Below, in pieces: positions 1 through 11,050 of a DNA stretch of 11,273 bases. Under the pieces are notes generated by a model. That model was not told the DNA's origin. It saw nothing but the letters and a program-made list of their open reading frames with translations, and searched no databases. This DNA is from a virus, in UHGV virus genome UHGV-1977856. One strand, given 5' to 3'. The position numbers and the translations under genes were made by a program. Numbering within the stretch: the first letter of the stretch is position 1; each line of letters starts with the position of its first letter.

Positions 1-77
1 CAGACACCACTGACCGCGTCATTAATCACGCAATTCCGGCGAGAATGCGGCTATCTGCAAAGTTAAAACTGCATAAA

Positions 78-117
78 AAAATAGAGTCTGTCGACATCCG
101 CCAGACTCTACAGTACA
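78..117 (-). terminator. Rho-independent terminator-like hairpin oriented for the - strand
   Basis: Perfect inverted repeat tagagtctg...cagactcta with an A-run at 78-84 on + (a T-run 3' of the hairpin on the - strand). No T-run follows on the + strand. Lies in the presumed host flank left of the element. Confidence 0.4.
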
Positions 118-386
118 CACAGCAGTGCATCCGCGTCTTAAGTCCGGCATTGTCTCCTCTGCGCCGGTGACTGTGTTATAACGGTTTTAACCTTTAGTTG
201 CCAATTTTCTTCAGTGACAGATTTCACGAAAATATAAGTTACATTATTAATATCGTGATTTTATAAATTAGTGTTTTTTGCTGTTTCATAATGTGCCACG
301 TTGTTCATTATGTTTTTGATTTTTAAGCTCATTGCAATTTTTCTTGTTCCAACTTGTTCCACGTTGTACCCCCTTGTGCAATGATC

Positions 387-411
387 GGTGTAGTTAATGG
401 TGTAGTTAATT
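387..411. repeat. Left terminal direct repeat ggtgtagttaatggtgtagttaatt (tandem 12-mer); candidate integrase arm-type site or att repeat
   Basis: Exact 25-bp match to 11026-11050; extends to 29 bp with one mismatch (ga[t/a]cggtg...). Ends immediately before the int start. Confidence 0.6.
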
Positions 412-2270: not shown

Positions 2271-3461
2271 ATGAATACTGGATATTCTCCCGAACAAGGG
2301 CGGGGCTTCGTTCGTCCTGAAAAACAGAATCTGCAAAATTTTGCCGAAATTATTCCGGTTATTTCCGGCCTTACTGGCGGGAGTGAAACCAATATTGTTA
2401 ACGCCAGAGCGTTGCAGATGTTTGATGATAAAAAGGGAGTAAATTTAACTTACACCCCTGACGGCAATCAGAATATGAGCATTATCTCTGAGTCAGGTTT
2501 CTACAAACTAATAAAAACAAAAAGCGCCCCGTTGCCGGAGCGCCTTTGTGAACAATTAACCTACTGCGCAAAAAATGAATCTGAGCAGTGGGATTATATC
2601 AACCGTGTGGCGAAGCGCCACAATTGCCGGATAACAGGCAAAACAAAGGCCACCCGCTACGGTGGCCCCTCGACACAAGCTACACGTTATCCCCAACGCA
2701 TGAGCATCACCAACAATGCCACATTTGCGGCTGGTGGGCAATGTGATCAGTCAGATTTGGTTCGTTCCAAGGTTTGCAACGAGAGCTTTTTCCTGTGCTC
2801 TTTAAGGAATTTCTCAAGAGCAAAAGCACATGGCGCGAATCTTTCTGATTCATGCTCTATCTTTCTGCGCCGTCTTTTCCGTGCCGGTGATAATGTTTTG
2901 GTCAATTCTTTATCGGTCATTGTGTTGTCCTGCATAGCAATGCGCCGTAATACCTTACACCACGGCGCTGATGGTGATTACTCTGGTTCTTTGGTCTTGC
3001 GACGCTGGAGTTCTTCGCGTGCAACGGTGACAAGCTGCCCGATTTCTTCCGCTGCTTTGATGCCGATTTGTTCGACCTTAGCCAGGGCATCCAGTGACGA
3101 CACAAGGGGATTTTCTCCGCTGCCTTCTGCTTGGCGGCGGGCTATTTCTCCGCGCATGGCGGTTACGATAAATCCGGCATTGCTTTCGCCGTCCAGCTTA
3201 ACGGATTCCATCCCTTGCATAACATCTAGTGGGACTCTGACAGTTGTCAGTTGTGATTTTGCGTTTTTGTTAGCCGTTGCCATTTCTGAAACTCCTAATC
3301 ATCGGTGTGTTTCAGTATACACAAAAAAAGAAATACAAAAAGCCTTGACGTGTGTTTCATGCGCTCATAACATGAAACACACCAAAAGAATTGTTGAAAT
3401 ACAAAGAGCAACGCCCCGCAGTGCCGGAAACACATACGGGGCGTCTAACCACCAACGATAG
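2271..3461 (+). CDS. Uncertain ORF: only the N-terminal ~130 codons look protein-like (weak BRO-N/KilA-N-like ESGFYKLI motif); possible pseudogene or read-through artefact
   Basis: Residues after about 2700 are Ser/Cys/Arg-rich low-complexity and lie exactly antisense to two better-supported - strand genes (2747-2920, 2978-3283). No in-frame stop until 3461. Confidence 0.25.
   Translation: MNTGYSPEQGRGFVRPEKQNLQNFAEIIPVISGLTGGSETNIVNARALQMFDDKKGVNLTYTPDGNQNMSIISESGFYKLIKTKSAPLPERLCEQLTYCAKNESEQWDYINRVAKRHNCRITGKTKATRYGGPSTQATRYPQRMSITNNATFAAGGQCDQSDLVRSKVCNESFFLCSLRNFSRAKAHGANLSDSCSIFLRRLFRAGDNVLVNSLSVIVLSCIAMRRNTLHHGADGDYSGSLVLRRWSSSRATVTSCPISSAALMPICSTLARASSDDTRGFSPLPSAWRRAISPRMAVTINPALLSPSSLTDSIPCITSSGTLTVVSCDFAFLLAVAISETPNHRCVSVYTKKEIQKALTCVSCAHNMKHTKRIVEIQRATPRSAGNTYGASNHQR
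2747..2920 (-). CDS. Small basic hypothetical protein (57 aa, MTDKELTKTLSPARKRRRRKIEHE...)
   Basis: Start taken at the internal ATG 2920, which has an SD (AGGA, 7-nt spacing); the ORF-track start 2935 lacks one. Lies downstream of, and co-oriented with, the RHH gene. Confidence 0.45.
   Translation of the reverse strand: MTDKELTKTLSPARKRRRRKIEHESERFAPCAFALEKFLKEHRKKLSLQTLERTKSD
2978..3283 (-). CDS. Ribbon-helix-helix (CopG/Arc-like) DNA-binding protein; candidate repressor of the element
   Basis: 101 aa with a good SD (ttaGGAGtttcagaaATG). N-terminus fits the RHH fold pattern: beta-strand TTVRVP, helix LDVMQGMESVKL, turn DGESNAG, helix FIVTAMRGEIARRQ. Sits divergent to the rightward operon, next to an inverted-repeat operator. 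Confidence 0.6.
   Translation of the reverse strand: MATANKNAKSQLTTVRVPLDVMQGMESVKLDGESNAGFIVTAMRGEIARRQAEGSGENPLVSSLDALAKVEQIGIKAAEEIGQLVTVAREELQRRKTKEPE
3304..3385. promoter_or_regulatory. Divergent promoter/operator region: rightward sigma70-like promoter overlapped by an 11-bp inverted repeat, plus a third half-site near the RHH gene start
   Basis: TTGACG (3345-3350), 17-bp spacer, TAACAT (3368-3373). Inverted repeat tgtgtttcatg (3351-3361) / catgaaacaca (3371-3381). A further tgtgtttca copy lies at 3307-3315. A leftward -10-like TATACT is the reverse complement of 3316-3321. Confidence 0.55.
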
Positions 3462-4142: not shown

Positions 4143-4335
4143 TCATGAATCGCACTTACCTGTCGTGCTGAATGTGCCGTCAGATTATACGGGGCGCGTT
4201 TTGATATTCCTGGATAAAGGGAAAGTGAAATCACAATGCCGTCTTAGAAATAATGAGGTTGTTGGTTCTCTGGCTTTTTTTTCTGAAGCCTGTATTCGTA
4301 CCGGAATAAAACCGGAATCACTGACAGGAAAATAA
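4135..4335 (+). CDS. Hypothetical small protein (66 aa)
   Basis: SD ccGGAGGatgtaagccATG; start overlaps the upstream stop by 8 nt. Confidence 0.5.
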   Translation: MHNHESHLPVVLNVPSDYTGRVLIFLDKGKVKSQCRLRNNEVVGSLAFFSEACIRTGIKPESLTGK

Positions 4336-4339
4336 AACC

Positions 4340-4639
4340 ATGAAAAAGAAAATTTCTGGCTTTACTGCCAGCGGCCCCGCTCGGCCTGAAATCCGCCCCG
4401 GCGATATTTTCCGGGATAACTACGGCGGCACGGTAACGATTAAAAGCGTGGCGGGACGGTGCGTTACTTACCGCCGTGATGGGTACGGTTATGACTGCGT
4501 GATGCCTGTTTATCAGTTCCGGCGTGATTTTTCGCTGGTACAGGCCACACCACGCAGACAGCCCACCAGCAACGCAAAGGCACGGGCAAATATTCAGAAA
4601 ATGAAAAACATGATTAACGCATTCAGGGGCACAAAATGA
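4340..4639 (+). CDS. Hypothetical small protein (99 aa)
   Basis: SD acAGGAAaataaaaccATG; its stop overlaps the rep start (ATGA). Confidence 0.5.
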   Translation: MKKKISGFTASGPARPEIRPGDIFRDNYGGTVTIKSVAGRCVTYRRDGYGYDCVMPVYQFRRDFSLVQATPRRQPTSNAKARANIQKMKNMINAFRGTK

Positions 4640-6051
4640 AATTGGCACCGAACTTAAAAAAACAGCCACACGACAAAATGACCGAAGTCATTATTTTTGC
4701 GGGTAGTGATGCCTGGGCGCACGCGAAACAATGGCAGGAACAGGACGGGCGACTTGCTGGCGACAACGTGCCACCTGTATGGCTTGGAGACAGCCAGCTT
4801 GACGAACTGGCAGACCTGAAAATCATCGATGATGGTCGCTATTGTGTCCGGCTGTACAAGGCAGGCCACATCAAGCCGTCAAATATTAATGCCATCGGGC
4901 AAAAGCTGGCGGCGGCAGGTGTACGGGATGCGAATTATTACCCTGAGGGAATGCACAGCCAGAAGCTGGAGAACTGGCACGACTACCTGCAACGGATCCG
5001 CGAACAGACAGAGCGCGGGGAAATACTTACTGACGAGCAATACAGCCAGCGAAAAACCACGCTACCAATGAGCATTGGATCTGCAGGGTACGACACACAG
5101 CTTGATTATGTCGTTAAGGGCGTGATTCCGGCTAATTCATTGTGCAGCACATACGGCGCGAGCGGTTCCTATAAATCGTTCCTCGCGTGTTCCTGGGCGT
5201 GTCATGTTGCCACGGGTCGCCACTGGGGAGGCCGCAGGGTGGCGCATGGTTCGGTGATGTATGTCGTCGGTGAAGGGGGGATAGGTGTCCCCCGTCGTAT
5301 CAAGGCATGGGAAATCGTTAATGATGAACGGGTGGAAAATCTGTACCTGGTAAACCGCCCGATTTTTCCGGCAGTCCCGCTTGATGTCGATGAAATGGTC
5401 ATCGCTTCCCGCCAGGTTGAACGGGAAACGGGTAAACCGGTACGCATGATTATTCTGGATACGCTGGCGCGTTGCTTTGGCGGTAATGATGAAAATGACG
5501 CGCGGGATATGGGGGCGTTTATCCGTGGATGTGACGAACTGAAACGACGCACAGGGGCCACAGTGCTGGTGGTTCACCATTCCGGCAAGGATGAAACAAA
5601 GGGGGCGCGTGGTTCCAGTGCATTTCGTGCATCTCTGGACGCTGAATACCGTATTCGCCGTGAAGGTGCAGACAGTGAAGCCCTGGTTATCTCCTGCACC
5701 AAAATGAAGGACGCGGAGGAACTGAAAGAGGCTGCATACGATTTACGTGTGGTGGAGCTTTTTACCGACACTGACGGGGAGTTAATCACGTCGCTGGTGG
5801 TTGTGGATAAACCGCGCCCACCCGTTGAACTGGAGCGCATCGAGGAAGCCGGGAACAAGACGGAGAATCATGCCGCGCTATGGGGCTGTATCCGTTCACG
5901 CACACAGCGCGGCGATAAATGCACAATTCCGTTGTTGCGTGATGATATGAAAAAGCTGGGGTATGAGATGAAACACTTCCGGCGCTGGCTGTACAAGCTG
6001 GAAGGTGATGGCGTTATTGCTATTGACGGTGATGACGTGTGCCCACTGTAA
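4636..6051 (+). CDS. Replication initiator / helicase with RecA-like (AAA_25, RepA-like) ATPase domain; N-terminal ~160 aa of unknown function
   Basis: 471 aa. P-loop-like GASGSYKS, Walker B-like MIILDTLARCFGG, and a VVHHSGKD motif typical of RepA-like helicases. Followed directly by an iteron array. No primase motifs recognised by eye. Confidence 0.8.
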   Translation: MKLAPNLKKQPHDKMTEVIIFAGSDAWAHAKQWQEQDGRLAGDNVPPVWLGDSQLDELADLKIIDDGRYCVRLYKAGHIKPSNINAIGQKLAAAGVRDANYYPEGMHSQKLENWHDYLQRIREQTERGEILTDEQYSQRKTTLPMSIGSAGYDTQLDYVVKGVIPANSLCSTYGASGSYKSFLACSWACHVATGRHWGGRRVAHGSVMYVVGEGGIGVPRRIKAWEIVNDERVENLYLVNRPIFPAVPLDVDEMVIASRQVERETGKPVRMIILDTLARCFGGNDENDARDMGAFIRGCDELKRRTGATVLVVHHSGKDETKGARGSSAFRASLDAEYRIRREGADSEALVISCTKMKDAEELKEAAYDLRVVELFTDTDGELITSLVVVDKPRPPVELERIEEAGNKTENHAALWGCIRSRTQRGDKCTIPLLRDDMKKLGYEMKHFRRWLYKLEGDGVIAIDGDDVCPL

Positions 6052-6245
6052 AAAGTGGGTAGTAAAAGTGGGGAGTGTGGGGAATTTAACAAAATTGAAA
6101 CGCGATTCCCCACTTTCCCACCTGTATATACCCCAAAAAGTGGGGAATAAAAATACATTGAAAAACATCACGTTAGAATCACAAAAAAAGAAGTGGGGAG
6201 ATGTTGGGTAATTTCAAAAAGTGGGTAGTAAAAGTGGGGAGCAGT
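6052..6245. repeat. Iteron-type replication origin
   Basis: AAGTGGG(G/T)A(G/A) recurs at 6053, 6066, 6077, 6138, 6191, 6219 and 6232, plus one inverted copy (ttccccactt, 6106-6115). A 24-bp block aaaagtgggtagtaaaagtggggag is duplicated at 6051-6075 and 6217-6241, bracketing an AT-rich core (6150-6190). Confidence 0.7.
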
Positions 6246-6250
6246 GAGGA

Positions 6251-6502
6251 ATGACCAGAAAAACCAGAGATAAGACAGCGCCAAAATATCTCGCATTAGA
6301 CATGACAGAGCACGCCTTAAAGGTGGCAATCAGAACGATAGACCGCCACGCTGGGGAAGGATACGCGAAAGCACATCCCGAACTGATAAGCGCATTCATG
6401 ACCACGACGGCGGCAAACTTTGCCACGCTGACAGAACGGGAGATTGCCGAAGCGGAACAGGTGACAACCATCAACGTTAAAACCGGAGAGCAGACAGCAT
6501 GA
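6251..6502 (+). CDS. Hypothetical protein (83 aa)
   Basis: Its stop overlaps the ssb start (ATGA); protein-like composition; no recognisable domain. Confidence 0.5.
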   Translation: MTRKTRDKTAPKYLALDMTEHALKVAIRTIDRHAGEGYAKAHPELISAFMTTTAANFATLTEREIAEAEQVTTINVKTGEQTA

Positions 6503-6921
6503 CAGCACAGATAGCGGCTTACGGGCGGCTGGTGGCTGACCCGCAGTTAAAGACCACCAGCAAAGGGACACAAATGGCGATGGCGAGTATGGCTGTTCCC
6601 CTTCCGTGTAGCCAGGCAGATGACGGAACGGCGACGATGTGGTTATCCGTCCTGGCGTTTGGCAGGCAGGCCGACGCACTGGCAAAGCACCACAAAGGCG
6701 AACTGGTGAGCGTGGCGGGTAACATGCAGGTAAGCCAGTGGACAGGCCAGAACGGCGAAACGCGGCAGGGCTGGCAGGTTATCGCAGACAGCGTAATCAG
6801 TGCCAGAACGGCGCGACCGGGCGGCAAAAAAGGCCAGCAGGGCCAGGCTACTGACGCACTGAACAGGGCAAAACAACAGGCGGGAAATGATGATCCGTAC
6901 GGGGATAACATACCGTTTTAA
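6499..6921 (+). CDS. ssb: Single-stranded DNA-binding protein (SSB family)
   Basis: 140 aa. OB-fold SSB pattern (YGRLVADPQLKTTSKG...MWLSVLAFGRQADALAKHHKGELVSVAGNMQVSQW...QGWQVIADSV), a Gly/Gln-rich linker, and an acidic C-terminal tail ending DDPYGDNIPF (compare the canonical DDDIPF). Confidence 0.8.
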   Translation: MTAQIAAYGRLVADPQLKTTSKGTQMAMASMAVPLPCSQADDGTATMWLSVLAFGRQADALAKHHKGELVSVAGNMQVSQWTGQNGETRQGWQVIADSVISARTARPGGKKGQQGQATDALNRAKQQAGNDDPYGDNIPF

Positions 6922-6935
6922 GCAACGAGTGACAG

Positions 6936-6960
6936 AAGCCGGAACAATCCGGCTTTTTTA
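6936..6960 (+). terminator. Rho-independent terminator after ssb
   Basis: Hairpin agccgg-aacaat-ccggct followed by tttttta, 15 nt after the ssb stop. Confidence 0.7.
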
Positions 6961-7034
6961 CGGGTCCTCCCGATGGAGTGGCCTTGCCACGGGGCGGGAG
7001 CGGCGCGGAAAAAGGCTGGTTTTTGCATTTTCAT
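6954..7034. repeat. Copy A of a duplicated ~80-bp GC-rich element containing a cosN-like motif
   Basis: Near-identical to 9489-9570; differs only in an internal segment (atggagtggcc versus gtgtggtgtcc). Contains ACGGGGCGGGAGCGGCGCGG at 6989-7008. Confidence 0.75.
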
Positions 7035-7345
7035 GGCGGCGGCAGCATGTGTGATAATTTATTGATAATTAAAAATTATTTCTGTTTTTACCTGTACAAT
7101 ATTTTTTTCTCCATGTCATTAGACCAGTTTGCAATTAATTGAAATATATAAATAAATTTGTTTTTCACCTGCCAGATGGAGTTGCCTGTGCAAAATGTGT
7201 TCAGATGGCGGGATATTTATGCCGGATTCTCTCCGGCTTTTTTGTGTCTGAATCTGATCAATCTATTTTTATGATAGAAATATGTTTATCTACCACTTTT
7301 ATCGATCAATAATGCGCGCAGTTTAGTCAGTAAGAGGAAGTTACT

Positions 7346-7555
7346 GTGAATTGTATTAACGACCTGAACACAGGCGAGGTAAAAGGTGGTTCCGTTCATC
7401 TGGATGCGCAGACCGTTATGCGCCTTAAGCAGTACAGGATCGACCACATAAATCATCATCCTGACCAACCATTACCAGGTGTGGCGCAGATTGTCAGACA
7501 CGCAGTTAACGCGTGGCTTGATAAGAATGGTTTTGCATCTGGGGGTGAGCAATGA
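7346..7555 (+). CDS. Hypothetical small protein (69 aa), first gene of the capsid operon
   Basis: GTG start with a strong SD (aagaggaag, about 6-nt spacing); its stop overlaps the protease::MCP start (ATGA). Confidence 0.55.
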   Translation: MNCINDLNTGEVKGGSVHLDAQTVMRLKQYRIDHINHHPDQPLPGVAQIVRHAVNAWLDKNGFASGGEQ

Positions 7556-9465
7556 ATCACTGGTACACCATTAAGGCGGCGGGTGTTCGCGGAGCGGCAG
7601 AAATATCCATCTATGAAGAAATTGGCGGCTTCGGTATCACCGCGAAGCAGTTTGCGGAAGACCTGAAAGCCCTGGGCGATGTCTCACATATCGACCTGCG
7701 GATCCATTCGCCAGGTGGTGACGTGTTTGAAGGCATCGCCATCTATAACCTGTTACGGAATCATCCGGCAGAAATTACGGTTTATATCGATGGTGTTGCG
7801 GCTTCAATGGCTTCGGTTGTCGCAATGGCTGGCGATCGTGTTGTGATGCCGGAAAACGCCATGATGATGATACATAAGCCGTGGGGTATCTCTGGCGGAA
7901 ATGCTGGTGATATGCGTGATTATGCTGATTTGCTGGATAAGGTGGAAACCGTGTTAGTCCCTGCTTATGCCAGAAAAACGGGCAAATCAGCACAGGAAAT
8001 TACCGCCATGCTGGAAGATGAAACCTGGATGGACGGGAAAGAATGCCTTAAGCACGGTTTTGCTGATGAATTGTTGCCATCTGTCACAGCAATGGCGCGA
8101 ATTGAATCGAAACGCACAGGAGATTTTTCACACATGCCGGAAACCATTAAAGGAATGATTACCCCGCCACAGGGAGCAGCCAATATTGCTGGTAATGAAC
8201 AGAAGCGCATCAACGGAATAAGTGAAGTGTTTAGCCTGTTCGGCAGTCGTTACGACGGGATCAAAATGGCGTGCCTGGAAGATGCATCATGTACACCGGA
8301 GATGGCCCGTGAAAAGTTGTTGAACGAGATGGGGCGCGAGTCCACGCCATCCAATAAAAATACCCCGGCTCATATTTATGCCGGTAACGGGAACATAACA
8401 GGCGATGCAATTCGTCAGGGGCTTTATTCCCGTCTCGGGTATGAACGCCCAGAGCGGGGAAATCCTTACGCGATGATGAGCCTTTTTGAAATGGCCCAGG
8501 CATCACTAACGGATCGTGGTATCAGTGTTGGCGGTTTTTTAAATCGCTCGCAGGTCGTTAATGCAGCTTTCACACACAGCAGCAGCGATTTTTCTCACAT
8601 TCTGGCTGGTGGTGCTGAAAAATCAGTACTGAAAGGCTGGCAGGACAGCGGCGAAACGTTCCAGAAATGGACGCGTACCGGATCGCTTTCAAACTTTCAT
8701 GAAGCAAAGCGCGTTGGTCTGAATGGTTTTTCAAAGCTGGATAAAGTACCGGAAGGTGCGGAATATAAATACATCACCACCAGCGATAAAGGTGTACCTA
8801 TTGCGCTGGCCACATACGGTAATATTTTTTCTGTTACCCGTCAGGCCATTATCAACGATGACCTGACCCAGTTAACTACAATCCCCATGGCGATGGGGCG
8901 TGCGGCCGCCAGAACAGTAGGTAATCTGGTTTATCTTCTGTTAACCAGCAACGGCAAATTTACGGATAGTAAAGCGTTATTCCATGCCGATCATAAAAAT
9001 CTTATTGCGAAGGATATGGACATGGAGGGGCTTAACGAAGCCCGTAAGCTGATGCGACTACAGGAGGATGCCAACGGCGACTCCCTGAATATTACCCCCG
9101 CATTTGTCCTGGTCCCCGCCGCGCTGGAGTCTGCCGCACATCGCGCCATTCTGTCATCGTCATCACTCTTTCCGGTTGATGGTGATGGCACTATCAATCA
9201 GAACCCCGGCATCATTAACGTGGTGAAAGATATGGCTGAGGTTATTGTTGAGCCACGTCTTGATAAGAACAATAACAAGGAGTGGTATGTAGCCGCAGCG
9301 AAAGGGATGGACACGATAGAGGTCGCTTATCTTGATGGTATTGATACGCCATATCTTGAGGAGCAGGTGGGCTTTACTGTTGATGGTGTCGCCTGGAAGG
9401 TGCGCATAGATGCAGGTGTCGCGGCCCTCGATTATCGTGGACTACTGAAATCGAACGGAGCATGA
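7552..9465 (+). CDS. Fusion protein: ClpP-like (S14) prohead protease N-terminal domain + HK97-fold / Mu gpT-like major capsid protein C-terminal domain
   Basis: 637 aa. N-terminus carries ClpP motifs (HSPGGDVFEGIAIYNLL...IDGVAASMASVVAMAGDRVVMPENAMMMIHKPWG). C-terminal ~330 aa fit the major-head-subunit pattern (KYITTSDKGVPIALATYGNIFSVTRQAIINDDL...IPMAMGRAAART...ITPAFVLVPAALESAA). Confidence 0.85.
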   Translation: MNHWYTIKAAGVRGAAEISIYEEIGGFGITAKQFAEDLKALGDVSHIDLRIHSPGGDVFEGIAIYNLLRNHPAEITVYIDGVAASMASVVAMAGDRVVMPENAMMMIHKPWGISGGNAGDMRDYADLLDKVETVLVPAYARKTGKSAQEITAMLEDETWMDGKECLKHGFADELLPSVTAMARIESKRTGDFSHMPETIKGMITPPQGAANIAGNEQKRINGISEVFSLFGSRYDGIKMACLEDASCTPEMAREKLLNEMGRESTPSNKNTPAHIYAGNGNITGDAIRQGLYSRLGYERPERGNPYAMMSLFEMAQASLTDRGISVGGFLNRSQVVNAAFTHSSSDFSHILAGGAEKSVLKGWQDSGETFQKWTRTGSLSNFHEAKRVGLNGFSKLDKVPEGAEYKYITTSDKGVPIALATYGNIFSVTRQAIINDDLTQLTTIPMAMGRAAARTVGNLVYLLLTSNGKFTDSKALFHADHKNLIAKDMDMEGLNEARKLMRLQEDANGDSLNITPAFVLVPAALESAAHRAILSSSSLFPVDGDGTINQNPGIINVVKDMAEVIVEPRLDKNNNKEWYVAAAKGMDTIEVAYLDGIDTPYLEEQVGFTVDGVAWKVRIDAGVAALDYRGLLKSNGA

Positions 9466-9472
9466 CAACAAG

Positions 9473-9495
9473 GGCGGCGACAGCCGCCTTTTTTT
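9473..9495 (+). terminator. Rho-independent terminator after the capsid gene; stem overlaps a lambda cohesive-end-like GGGCGGCGAC
   Basis: Hairpin ggcggc-gaca-gccgcc followed by ttttttt, 8 nt after the stop. Confidence 0.65.
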
Positions 9496-9570
9496 ACGGG
9501 TCCTCCCGGTGTGGTGTCCTTGCCACGGGGCGGGAGCGGCGCGGAAAAAGGCTGGTTTTTGCATTTTCAT
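9489..9570. repeat. Copy B of the duplicated ~80-bp GC-rich element containing a cosN-like motif
   Basis: Matches 6954-7034. Contains ACGGGGCGGGAGCGGCGCGG at 9525-9544. Confidence 0.75.
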
Positions 9571-9723
9571 TCGTCATTATCATCTTTCTATCATATTGAA
9601 TATTAAGTGTTTTTATTTTTGGTATGTTAATTTCGCTTATTTTGTGTTCAACATGCAGCGCGTTTTTTGACCTTTTTTGAAAGATATTTGCAAGATGCAT
9701 GTTTAAAACATTCTGGAGCGGGT

Positions 9724-10209
9724 ATGGATCGGGAACTGAAAAATCTGATGCTGAACATTAACCAGCTGGCGGCGATAGCGGGAATATGTCGCCAGACTGC
9801 GGCGGCAAGGCTGAAAAATATCCAGCCAGCCGGAGGACATGACAAGCTGAAACTCTATCGGGTGACTGACATTCTGACCTGTTTTCTTGATCTTCCCGTT
9901 CCGGCATCACTGGAAGAAATGGAGCCACACGACCGTAAGGCCTGGTATCAGTCCGAACGTGAGCGCCTCAAGTTCGAACAGGAAACGGCGCAACTCATAC
10001 CCGCCGATGATGTGCGAAAAGAGATGGCTATATGGGGAGAAATCGTAAGCGAGGAACTGGAAAAACTCCCCAGTATTCTGGCACGTGATGCTGGGCTTAA
10101 ACCGATGGCAGTAAACAGAGTGCAGTCAATTATTGACGATTTGTGTAATCAGATTATCAGCCGGATGGTGAAAAATGACGTAGTGAATGAGGTCGCAAAA
10201 CAGGCATGA
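9724..10209 (+). CDS. Small terminase subunit, lambda Nu1-like (N-terminal winged-HTH); candidate packaging-specificity / redirection protein
   Basis: ATG 9724 has an SD (GGAG, 7-nt spacing); the ORF-track start 9667 is a TTG. The 162-aa product parallels lambda gpNu1 in length and pattern: NINQLAAIAGICRQTAAARL / AGGHDKLKLYRVTDIL versus Nu1 NKKQLADIFGASIRTIQNW / GGGKGNEVLYDSAAVI, and C-terminal EIVSEELEKLPSILARD versus IAGEIASILDGLPLSV (Nu1 recalled from memory). Confidence 0.7.
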   Translation: MDRELKNLMLNINQLAAIAGICRQTAAARLKNIQPAGGHDKLKLYRVTDILTCFLDLPVPASLEEMEPHDRKAWYQSERERLKFEQETAQLIPADDVRKEMAIWGEIVSEELEKLPSILARDAGLKPMAVNRVQSIIDDLCNQIISRMVKNDVVNEVAKQA

Positions 10210-10539: not shown

Positions 10540-11025
10540 AGACGGTATTTAAATCGGGTGGTGTTTAATACCCCCAGGGGGATAGAAATCCCTACACCTC
10601 ATTGCTTATGGGACCGCCCGCCTACCCTTGTTCACATCGCCGCAGGTTCGAAAACTTTTTTTGGGAAGGTGTGCACGGGATTGATAGATGAGGTCTATCT
10701 ATAAAAAATCACAAAATCCGCGCCATTGCTGGATCCGCCAAAAATCCCCCACCTTACGGCAGACAAAGAAAACGCGAATTATGGGCCTGTTGCAGAGAAA
10801 AAAGGTCTCACTAGTTTTGCGCACCCTAGCATCGAGGTTCGTCAGCCTCCCATCAGCAACCAGATAACTAATCTCGCTGGTGGGCATGATGCCGATATGG
10901 GGACTTCCATAACGGTTTATCCGTGATCATCCACCAGCTTCATGGCGGATAGCCGGAAAATGATAACGGTATAGCCCGTCGCTTGTGTCTATTTGTTCCG
11001 CATTGTTGCATACAGTGCACCGAAC

Positions 11026-11050
11026 GGTGTAGTTAATGGTGTAGTTAATT
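11026..11050. repeat. Right terminal direct repeat ggtgtagttaatggtgtagttaatt
   Basis: Exact 25-bp match to 387-411. Confidence 0.6.

What the first reader, a model, noticed from the sequence alone, without database searches (positions are those of the whole stretch)
6052..6245. Iteron origin directly downstream of the helicase gene
At least eight AAGTGGG(G/T)A copies (one inverted) and a duplicated 24-bp block flank an AT-rich core. This arrangement is typical of a rep-adjacent ori in plasmids and satellites. No primase is recognisable in this window; only a RepA-like helicase and an SSB.
Basis: seen in the sequence. Interest (0 to 1): 0.45.

Follow-up and report, generated by a model that had tools for sequence, protein, structure and literature searches.

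The report
Replication origin of a phage satellite
The repeat-filled gap after the helicase gene is very probably the replication origin of a small E. coli chromosomal island that parasitises phages (a PICI); this kind of origin is already described, so this is a well-supported but ordinary example.

Summary
The 199-bp gap 6052-6250 between the rep stop codon and the next gene holds 7 exact AGTGGGKA copies (6 direct, 1 inverted; 0.49 expected in the whole window). It also holds 4 degenerate copies, a perfect 26-bp duplicated block (6050-6075 / 6216-6241) and a 78% AT spacer (6148-6187).

The window is an integrated 10.6-kb PICI-type phage satellite in the E. coli chromosome, not a plasmid. Its genes are int, alpA, DUF4222, rep, ori, orf83, ssb, protease-capsid fusion and terS.

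[quoted passage not shown] is the published PICI origin layout. It was shown to be functional for EcCICFT073.

Across 83 relatives from Enterobacterales the layout is conserved while the iteron sequence changes. That sequence covaries with one residue (K-x-F) in the C-terminal winged helix of Rep. Compared with EcCICFT073, the helicase, winged helix and iterons are swapped together as one cassette.

- The most conserved feature is a divergent iteron pair around a TATATA box (6105-6148).
- The Rep N-terminus has a TOPRIM (DnaG-primase-like) fold that seems to lack the catalytic acidic residues and is not the iteron reader.

Verdict: new member of a known kind, modest interest.

The parts
4636..6051 (+). 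rep: a 471-aa initiator-helicase. It has a TOPRIM-like N-domain (aa 1-134), an SF4/RecA-type RepA-family ATPase core (AAA_25, aa 152-320) and a C-terminal winged helix (about aa 410-471).
5863..6048 (+). Rep C-terminal winged-helix domain, the proposed iteron reader. K446-H447-F448 sits at the start of the third helix.
6050..6250 (.). Proposed replication origin of the island, filling the whole rep-orf83 intergenic region.
   Evidence: establish the repeats. The layout is conserved in relatives. The position is equivalent to the tested EcCICFT073 ori.
6053..6083 (+). Left iteron set: AAGTGGGTA (6053-6061), AAGTGGGGA (6066-6074) and the degenerate GTGTGGGGA (6075-6083). The GTGGG cores are spaced 13 and 9 bp apart.
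6105..6148 (.). Divergent iteron pair. The inverted AAGTGGGGA is at 6107-6115 (-), with a degenerate second inverted copy at 6115-6123. The direct AAGTGGGGA is at 6138-6146 (+). The perfect 12-nt arms flank a loop containing TATATA (6125-6130). This is the proposed nucleus for melting and helicase loading.
   Evidence: repeat I2. An equivalent perfect inverted pair of at least 8 nt, with a TATA-containing loop of 16-26 nt, lies 39-66 nt after the rep stop in 63 of 83 related loci.
6148..6187 (.). AT-rich spacer (78% AT, A-rich on the + strand), a candidate DNA-unwinding region.
   Evidence: The equivalent spacer is at least 70% AT in 42 of 63 relatives, but at least 10 relatives have a GC-richer type instead.
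6191..6250 (+). Right iteron set: AAGTGGGGA (6191-6199), a weak TTGGGTA (about 6203-6209), AAGTGGGTA (6219-6227), AAGTGGGGA (6232-6240) and the degenerate CAGTGAGGA (6242-6250). The last copy abuts the orf83 ATG at 6251 and overlaps its likely Shine-Dalgarno sequence.
6251..6502 (+). orf83 (phrog_1231, function unknown), the first gene after the origin. It is conserved next to unrelated origins.
   Evidence: It is 83% identical to the gene after the EcCICFT073 ori.
6499..6921 (+). ssb, a satellite-encoded single-strand DNA-binding protein that is part of the replication module.
   Evidence: Pfam SSB at E 4e-16 and NCBIfam TIGR00621.

Best explanation
**What it is.** The region 6050-6250 is the vegetative replication origin of a PICI-type phage satellite of about 10.6 kb. 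The island is integrated between abgR and smrA in E. coli.

**Proposed mechanism.**
1. A helper phage switches on the rightward alpA operon, and Rep (4636-6051) is made.
2. The C-terminal winged helix of Rep reads the 9-bp iterons AAGTGGG(G/T)A. Residue H447, in the K-H-F motif at the start of the recognition helix, contacts the fourth base of GTG-G.
3. Rep occupies the left set (3 sites), the right set (4-5 sites) and the divergent pair that brackets TATATA.
4. The DNA melts at the TATATA box and/or the adjacent 78% AT spacer.
5. The SF4 RepA/DnaB-like ring of Rep loads itself onto single-stranded DNA without a separate loader.
6. The satellite SSB coats the unwound strands.
7. Priming and synthesis are left to host enzymes. 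The TOPRIM-like N-domain of Rep appears to lack the catalytic acidic residues.

**What is shown.** The repeats, their statistics and their conserved layout. The covariation of iteron sequence with Rep. The cassette swap. The domain folds. Positional equivalence to a tested origin.

**What is inferred.** Binding, the site of melting, self-loading and the source of primers.
For: **1. The repeats are real and confined to this gap**.

**2. The context is a PICI.**
- The genes are int, alpA, an icd-like gene, DUF4222, rep, orf83, ssb, protease-capsid fusion and DUF1441 terS.
- att-like direct repeats lie at 343-411 and 10982-11050.
- The sequence is 100% identical to E. coli PI7 between abgR and smrA.

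**3. The layout is published.** PICI origins lie immediately 3' of rep and have two iteron sets flanking an AT-rich region. The EcCICFT073 rep-ori pair drove plasmid maintenance, and deleting rep or ori abolished or reduced it (PMC6092414). In SaPIs a C-terminal winged helix of Rep reads the iterons, and opposite-facing iterons flank the AT region (PMC9371898).

**4. The layout is conserved in relatives.**
- 69 of 78 usable loci from Enterobacterales carry at least 4 iteron copies within 300 nt after the rep stop.
- 63 of 83 loci have the divergent pair around TATATA at a fixed distance.
- The order of elements is the same in all inspected loci.

**5. Iteron sequence covaries with the Rep K-x-F motif**.
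- KHF goes with GTGGG.
- KNF goes with GTGAGG.
- KSF goes with GTGCGG.
- KKF goes with GTGGGGG.

A prediction made from this was met. The O157:H7 Rep is 92% identical over the last 78 aa but has KNF, and its origin has GTGAGG iterons. KHF and KHL relatives keep GTGGG. The Enterobacter KGF relative has GTGCG.

**6. The cassette moves as a unit.** Against EcCICFT073, DNA homology stops at window 4989 (Rep codon about 118) and resumes at 6294 (orf83 codon 15). The helicase core, winged helix and iterons are replaced together by D5_N + DUF5906 + Pox_D5 and TGTCTACC/GGTAGAYA iterons.

**7. Iterons follow Rep, not the packaging genes.** L083 has the same iterons as the window but a different terS and capsid module.

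**8. Rep has the parts needed.** These are an SF4 helicase core and a C-terminal winged helix.
Against: - Nothing here shows binding, melting or replication directly.
- The full-length Rep model is poor (mean pLDDT 61.7). Only the N- and C-terminal domains are reliable.
- The covariation is partly confounded by phylogeny. All but a few KNF/GAGGA cases are Xenorhabdus.
- The Salmonella KNF locus L089 has a mixed GTGAGG, GTGGGG and ATGGGTA array plus a second partial array, so the one-residue code is not clean.
- The AT-rich spacer is not universal. At least 10 relatives have a GC-richer spacer there.
- The least stable DNA of the window lies outside the proposed origin, at 7050-7140.
- No recognisable active primase is present, so the priming step is open.
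Confidence: 0.85

Rival explanations
1. The repeats are mainly an operator array. A regulator (Rep itself or another island protein) binds them to control transcription or translation of the downstream orf83-ssb-capsid-terS genes. The region would not be an origin.
For: The array fills the intergenic region directly upstream of orf83. The last degenerate copy (6242-6250) abuts the ATG at 6251 and overlaps the likely ribosome-binding site. In many iteron plasmids the iterons double as autoregulatory sites (general knowledge).
Against: No sigma-70-like promoter or terminator is found in 5900-6400. orf83 is 83% identical downstream of the EcCICFT073 origin, which has unrelated repeats, so the repeats are not tied to that gene. 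The repeats covary with the Rep winged helix and move with the helicase cassette. The equivalent EcCICFT073 region was needed for replication. A secondary regulatory role is not excluded.
Confidence: 0.07
2. The repeats are a packaging recognition site (cosB or pac-like) bound by the small terminase or an Rpp-type protein of the satellite.
For: Terminase-binding sites are also short repeats. E. coli PICIs carry their own cos sites with divergent cosB (PMC6739421). The window encodes a DUF1441 small terminase at 9667-10209.
Against: The iteron class follows Rep, not the packaging module. L083 has the same iterons with a different terS and capsid, and L084 has the same capsid type with altered iterons. 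A better cos candidate exists elsewhere: the duplicated 81-nt element at 6954-7034 and 9490-9570 matches the ends of lambdoid phage genomes.
Confidence: 0.03
3. The array is a decayed or non-functional remnant. The repeats persist by descent in a defective island and no longer fire as an origin.
For: Some relatives are clearly degraded. L085 has a truncated array followed by pseudogenes. No helper phage for this island is known.
Against: In the window all genes of the module are intact ORFs, and the two 26-bp blocks are 100% identical. The architecture is kept across genera while the iteron sequence co-changes with Rep, which indicates selection. A full-length array is present in 326 of 5426 E. 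coli genomes.
Confidence: 0.05

Closest known systems
EcCICFT073 ori / Pri-Rep (Gram-negative PICI; Fillol-Salom et al. 2018, PMC6092414)
   Same: The element type and synteny match: int, alpA, DUF4222, rep, ori, orf of about 85 aa, ssb, capsid genes. The origin lies immediately 3' of rep, with iteron sets and oppositely oriented iterons around AT-rich DNA. The Rep N-terminal 131 aa are 62% identical, orf83 is 83% identical, and an AAAAATAC(A/T)T stretch is shared in the AT-rich part.
   Different: The helicase is of another superfamily: D5_N + DUF5906 (SF3) + Pox_D5, against SF4 RepA-type + winged helix here. The iterons are unrelated: TGTCTACC/GGTAGAYA against AAGTGGGKA. The intergenic region is longer, 288 against 199 bp.
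SaPI origins and Rep proteins (SaPIbov1, SaPI1, SaPI5; Ubeda et al. 2007, Qiao et al. 2022, PMC9371898)
   Same: The logic is the same. A self-loading initiator-helicase reads short iterons with a C-terminal winged helix. The origin sits directly after rep, with iterons on both sides of AT-rich DNA and at least one pair in opposite orientation.
   Different: SaPI Reps are AAA+ helicases related to MCM and SF3 that translocate 3'-5'. The Rep here has a RecA-type SF4 core. SaPI iterons are 5-6 bp; here they are 9 bp. The hosts are Gram-positive and the regulation differs (Stl against AlpA).
RSF1010 / IncQ RepA helicase with oriV
   Different: In IncQ plasmids, origin recognition (RepC) and priming (RepB') are done by separate proteins, and RepA has no DNA-reading domain (established knowledge). 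Here the helicase carries its own winged helix and a TOPRIM-like N-domain, and no RepC or RepB' homologue is in the window. The origin is not found on genuine plasmids.
T7 gp4 / Twinkle primase-helicases
   Different: There is no zinc-binding domain. The canonical TOPRIM Glu and DxD are not evident in the sequence. A C-terminal origin-binding winged helix is added. T7 gp4 does not recognise an iteron origin.
Classical iteron plasmids (pSC101, F, R6K, RK2; Rep_3-type initiators)
   Same: Repeated initiator-binding sites lie next to an AT-rich unwinding region, adjacent to the rep gene.
   Different: Those initiators are winged-helix dimers without helicase activity. Their iterons are 17-22 bp, and DnaA boxes and host DnaB/DnaC loading are required (established knowledge). 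Here there is no Rep_3 domain, no DnaA box in the origin, the iterons are 9 bp and the element is chromosomal.

Membership tests
PICI-type replication origin (SaPI / Gram-negative PICI ori) | Lies immediately 3' of the gene for the replication initiator-helicase | tested here: met
   The rep stop TAA is at 6049-6051. The first iteron starts at 6053, and the 26-bp block starts at 6050, overlapping the stop. The same holds in relatives.
PICI-type replication origin (SaPI / Gram-negative PICI ori) | [quoted passage not shown] | tested here: met
   The left set is 6053-6083, followed by the central pair at 6107-6146. The right set is 6191-6250. The 78% AT spacer is 6148-6187 and the TATATA box is 6125-6130.
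PICI-type replication origin (SaPI / Gram-negative PICI ori) | Iterons in opposite orientation on the two sides of the melting region | tested here: met
   A perfect 12-nt inverted pair (6105-6116 / 6137-6148) lies around TATATA (I2). It is conserved in 63 of 83 relatives. The larger AT spacer, however, is flanked by iterons of the same orientation.
PICI-type replication origin (SaPI / Gram-negative PICI ori) | Host element is a PICI: int, alpA-type regulator, rep, capsid-morphogenesis gene, terS, about 10 kb, unidirectional, own att site | tested here: met
   Searches identify the genes. att-like repeats lie 10,639 bp apart. The criteria are those of PMC6092414 and PMC10085698.
PICI-type replication origin (SaPI / Gram-negative PICI ori) | Cognate Rep binds the iterons, and rep+ori supports autonomous replication | not testable with these tools
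   Support is indirect only: covariation of iteron class with the Rep winged-helix motif and the cassette swap.
Classical iteron-plasmid origin (Rep_3 initiators) | Rep_3-type winged-helix initiator without helicase, DnaA boxes in the origin, residence on plasmids | tested here: not met
   The only Pfam hit on Rep is AAA_25. There is no DnaA box at up to 2 mismatches in 6085-6250 and no relaxed box either. There are 442 chromosomal places and 0 plasmid places in E. coli genomes. Two dubious PLSDB records are the only plasmid matches.
IncQ (RSF1010) replicon | Three-protein system: RepA helicase, RepB' primase and RepC iteron-binding initiator | tested here: not met
   Only the RepA-like core is present. 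No RepB' or RepC-like protein is found among the window ORFs.
T7 gp4 / Twinkle primase-helicase | TOPRIM-fold domain N-terminal to an SF4 helicase | tested here: met
T7 gp4 / Twinkle primase-helicase | Catalytic TOPRIM residues (Glu after strand 1, DxD after strand 3) and a zinc-binding domain | tested here: inconclusive
   By sequence, strand 1 (18-22) is followed by A22-G23-S24-D25 and strand 3 (70-75) by A76-G77-H-I. There is no E or DxD there, and no Cys-rich segment in aa 1-17. I had no residue-level structural alignment and no activity assay.
P4 alpha / EcCICFT073 Pri-Rep family (D5_N + SF3 helicase + Pox_D5) | D5_N, SF3 (DUF5906) and Pox_D5 domains | tested here: not met
   These domains are present in CFT073 Pri-Rep and absent from the window Rep. 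Only aa 1-131 align.

The most novel reading that the evidence does not exclude
This Rep may define a distinct class of self-loading initiator-helicase. It would be an SF4 (RepA/DnaB/T7 gp4-like) ring with a degenerate TOPRIM N-domain and its own C-terminal origin-reading winged helix. It would be functionally parallel to, but not homologous with, the AAA+/SF3 Reps characterised in SaPIs and EcCICFT073. Two further properties would follow. A single residue at the start of the recognition helix (H, N, S/G or K at position 447) would set the iteron specificity, giving naturally orthogonal Rep-ori pairs. Loading would be nucleated at the conserved divergent iteron pair around TATATA rather than in the large AT-rich spacer.
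Probability: 0.4. Interest if true: 0.5.

Novelty: new member of a known kind. Interest (0 to 1): 0.3.

Why it matters
For annotation, this fixes the origin and the replication module of a satellite family present in hundreds of E. coli genomes and in many other Enterobacterales. It also shows that the 'helicase RepA family protein' and 'DNA primase' labels hide an initiator.

For mechanism, the natural series of Rep/iteron variants suggests a compact recognition rule. Within nearly identical proteins, GTG-G, GTG-A and GTG-C iterons go with H, N and S/G. The rule is directly testable by swap experiments. It could also provide orthogonal origin-initiator pairs for engineered PICI 'drones'.

An SF4 helicase that reads its own origin would be a useful comparison to the SF3/MCM-like SaPI Reps. 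It bears on how a ring helicase loads without a loader.

None of this changes the basic picture. Iteron origins directly after rep are the published hallmark of PICIs.

Tried and rejected
- **Pfam on the isolated domains.** The N-terminal 146 aa and C-terminal 102 aa gave nothing significant at E up to 10. NCBIfam gave only weak RadA matches for Rep.
- **PDB sequence search with the C-terminal profile.** A profile of 14 C-terminal domains found nothing significant. The best meaningful-looking match was to a transcription-regulator winged HTH at E 0.77.
- **Homologue search with the N-domain alone.** It returned only E. coli and Shigella fragments and deletion fusions labelled 'DNA primase, partial'. 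These served as alignment rows but said nothing about other domain contexts.
- **DnaA-dependent origin.** Rejected. There is no DnaA box in the origin, no IHF consensus and no GATC site. One perfect TTATCCACA lies inside rep at 5802-5810, but I could not separate it from coding constraint.
- **Promoter or terminator in the gap.** None was found.
- **Known RNA in the gap.** None. Rfam finds only McaS at 73-168, outside the island.
- **Plasmid origin.** Rejected.
- **A strict one-residue code.** Weakened by Salmonella L089, which has KNF with mixed iterons.
- **Literature.** The cf-PICI and SatelliteFinder papers contain no description of this Rep type or its iterons in the text I could search. 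Figure 2a of PMC6092414 lists iteron sequences of several E. coli PICIs but figures are not held, so I cannot exclude that this iteron is already shown there.

Full report
**1. The observation**

The gap between the stop codon of the 471-aa ORF (TAA at 6049-6051) and the next start codon (ATG at 6251) is packed with one short motif.

- The exact pattern AGTGGGKA occurs seven times in the whole 11.3-kb window. All seven lie between 6054 and 6240: six direct and one inverted at 6107-6114. Shuffles give 0.49 expected, and none of 200 reaches seven.
- Allowing one mismatch on the 9-mer adds nothing inside the region.
- Allowing two mismatches with a GTG core adds 6075-6083, 6115-6123 (inverted), 6242-6250 and a non-conserved site inside rep at 6040-6048.
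- The 5-mer core GTGGG is about 40-fold enriched here (9 against 0.22 expected).

- The 'duplicated 24-bp block' is a perfect 26-bp duplication at 6050-6075 and 6216-6241.
- The 'AT-rich core' is real. 6148-6187 is 78% AT and contains the least stable 30-mer of the neighbourhood.

**2. The context**

The window is 100% identical to the chromosome of E. coli strain PI7. There the segment sits between abgR and smrA.

Its genes, all rightward, are:
- a tyrosine integrase (412-1662)
- an AlpA regulator
- an Icd-like gene
- a DUF4222 gene
- the RepA-family helicase (4636-6051)
- orf83
- SSB
- a ClpP-protease/major-capsid fusion (7552-9465)
- a DUF1441 small terminase

att-like direct repeats lie at 343-411 and 10982-11050. 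This matches the published definition of a Gram-negative PICI: int, alpA, primase-replicase, a capsid gene, terS, about 10 kb, unidirectional (PMC6092414; PMC10085698).

The origin sequence occurs in 374 of 5426 complete E. coli genomes. It is always chromosomal and always next to a 'helicase RepA family protein'. It occurs on no convincing plasmid.

**3. Comparison with what is published**

Fillol-Salom et al. state that the region immediately 3' of rep is the PICI origin. It always has two iteron sets flanking an AT-rich region. For EcCICFT073, rep plus ori drives plasmid maintenance, and mutating either impairs it. [quoted passage not shown] The layout in the window fits this description point by point.

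**4. Relatives**

Rep homologues are abundant in Enterobacterales (2921 hits). I fetched 80 loci from one genome per species and several E. coli, Salmonella and Enterobacter loci.

In 69 of 78 usable loci, at least four iteron copies lie within 300 nt after the rep stop. The order of elements is the same everywhere I looked:
1. two or three direct iterons abutting or overlapping the stop codon
2. about 20-25 nt of spacer
3. one inverted iteron
4. a (T)GTATATA box
5. one direct iteron
6. a spacer of 45-65 nt ending in an A-run
7. three or four direct iterons

A perfect inverted pair of at least 8 nt with a TATA-containing loop of 16-26 nt sits 39-66 nt after the stop in 63 of 83 loci. The larger spacer is at least 70% AT in 42 of 63 loci. 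In at least ten loci it is replaced by a GC-richer type. The divergent pair around TATATA is therefore the most conserved feature of this origin family.

**5. Who reads the iterons**

The iteron sequence differs between lineages:
- GTGGGKA
- GTGAGGA
- GTGGGGGA
- GTGCGGC
- GTGGGGGC

It covaries with a K-x-F-x-R-W motif near the Rep C-terminus:
- KHF with GTGGG
- KNF with GTGAGG
- KSF with GTGCGG
- KKF with GTGGGGG

I then used this as a prediction.
- The O157:H7 Rep is 92% identical to the window protein over the last 78 residues but carries KNF. Its origin indeed has GTGAGG iterons.
- Two other E. coli elements with KHF and KHL keep GTGGG.
- An Enterobacter Rep with KGF has GTGCG.
- One Salmonella locus with KNF has a mixed array, so the rule is not perfect.

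- Cdt1
- the MCM C-terminus
- ORC/Cdc6

Asn pairing with adenine and His or Lys with guanine are common contacts in protein-DNA complexes (general knowledge). That fits direct read-out by this residue, but it remains an inference.

**6. The cassette swap**

The experimentally studied EcCICFT073 lies in the same synteny.
- Its Pri-Rep shares only the first 131 residues with the window Rep, at 62% identity.
- The rest is D5_N + DUF5906 + Pox_D5, a different helicase superfamily.
- Its origin uses unrelated TGTCTACC/GGTAGAYA iterons.
- The gene after the origin is 83% identical to orf83.

At the DNA level, homology covers window 4324-4989 and 6294-6827 only. The helicase core, winged helix and iterons are therefore exchanged as one unit. 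This is what a cognate initiator-origin pair predicts. It argues against the N-domain as the iteron reader and against the repeats being operators tied to orf83.

The iteron class is also independent of the packaging module. L083 has the same iterons with a different capsid and terS.

**7. The Rep protein**

- The N-terminal 134 residues have no Pfam match. They fold confidently on their own (pLDDT 90.6).
- The sequence shows no Glu after the first strand, no DxD after the third, and no zinc-binding segment.
- The domain order is thus that of T7 gp4 and Twinkle plus an origin-binding winged helix, probably with an inactive primase domain.
- The priming step is open. Host DnaG is the simplest candidate.

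**8. Mechanism proposed**

Rep binds the iterons through its winged helix. It assembles on the divergent pair and the flanking sets, opens the TATATA box and/or the adjacent AT-rich spacer, and loads its own SF4 ring. The satellite SSB covers the single strands, and host enzymes prime and elongate.

Shown here: the anatomy, its conservation, the covariation, the cassette behaviour and the domain folds. Inferred: binding, the melting site, self-loading and priming.

**9. Rivals**

- **An operator array for the downstream operon.** Possible as a secondary role, since the last copy overlaps the ribosome-binding site. It does not explain the covariation with Rep or the cassette swap, and no promoter is detected.
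- **A packaging site.** Unlikely, because the repeats do not follow terS. A better cos candidate is the 81-nt duplicate at 6954-7034 and 9490-9570, which matches lambdoid phage genome ends. EcCICFT073 is known to carry two cos sites.
- **A dead remnant.** Unlikely for this copy, because all parts are intact and the architecture is under selection across genera.

**10. Verdict**

Its interpretation is supported, once 'plasmid or satellite' is narrowed to a PICI-type phage satellite and the binding domain is moved from the N- to the C-terminus.

The feature is a new member of a known kind. Beyond the textbook picture, three things may be worth a short experimental follow-up: the conserved divergent iteron pair around TATATA, the apparent one-residue specificity rule, and the fact that an SF4 helicase rather than an SF3/MCM-like one carries the origin-reading winged helix.

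Noticed in passing
window 6954-7034 and 9490-9570: An 81-nt direct repeat (95% identical). One copy follows ssb and the other follows the protease-capsid gene. The region around the first copy matches the genome ends of lambdoid phages mEp460, HannyBb, cdtI and Tritos. EcCICFT073 is reported to carry two cos sites, so these may be cos1/cos2-like packaging sites.
   Followed up: partly
window 343-411 and 10982-11050: att-like direct repeats of 69 nt (77% identical). The last 26 nt, CGGTGTAGTTAATGGTGTAGTTAATT, are identical in both copies. They bound an island of about 10.6 kb between abgR and smrA.
   Followed up: partly
window 5802-5810 (- strand): A single perfect DnaA box, TTATCCACA, inside the rep coding sequence about 250 nt upstream of the origin. 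It is the only perfect match in the window. It overlaps the conserved codons V-D-K, so I could not separate coding constraint from a DNA-level function.
   Followed up: no
L087 (EcCICFT073 ori) about 12180-12205; L002, L033, L041, L044, L045, L079, L088 spacers: A conserved motif, CTGAAA(C/G)CCnCGyCATTACTGG, occupies the origin spacer in at least 10 relatives. It also occurs in the EcCICFT073 origin, whose helicase and iterons are unrelated. It is absent from the window. It may be a shared host-factor or priming site, but it is unexplained.
   Followed up: partly
L003 (Xenorhabdus beddingii) about 5250-5360; L089 (Salmonella) about 3120-3300: Second, tandem origin-like arrays lie directly after the first one. 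In L003 the second array uses a different iteron class, GTGGGGA after GTGAGGA. In L089 the first array is a mixture of classes. This suggests recombination between origins of different specificity.
   Followed up: no
window 4636-5037 (Rep aa 1-134): The N-terminal domain is shared between two unrelated helicase types: SF4 here and SF3/D5 in EcCICFT073 (62% identity). It has a TOPRIM-like fold. Many database entries for it are truncated fragments or fusions to SSB or PerC labelled 'DNA primase, partial', pointing to frequent deletions across the origin region.
   Followed up: partly
window 73-168 (- strand): The McaS/IsrA small RNA gene (Rfam RF00115, 117.6 bits) lies just outside the left end of the island, next to abgR.
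   Followed up: no
L085 (E. coli Ec-042-T5-ESBL) 2652-3090: A relative in which the origin is cut after the central iteron, and the downstream orf and ssb are annotated as pseudogene fragments. It is an example of a decayed replication module.
   Followed up: no
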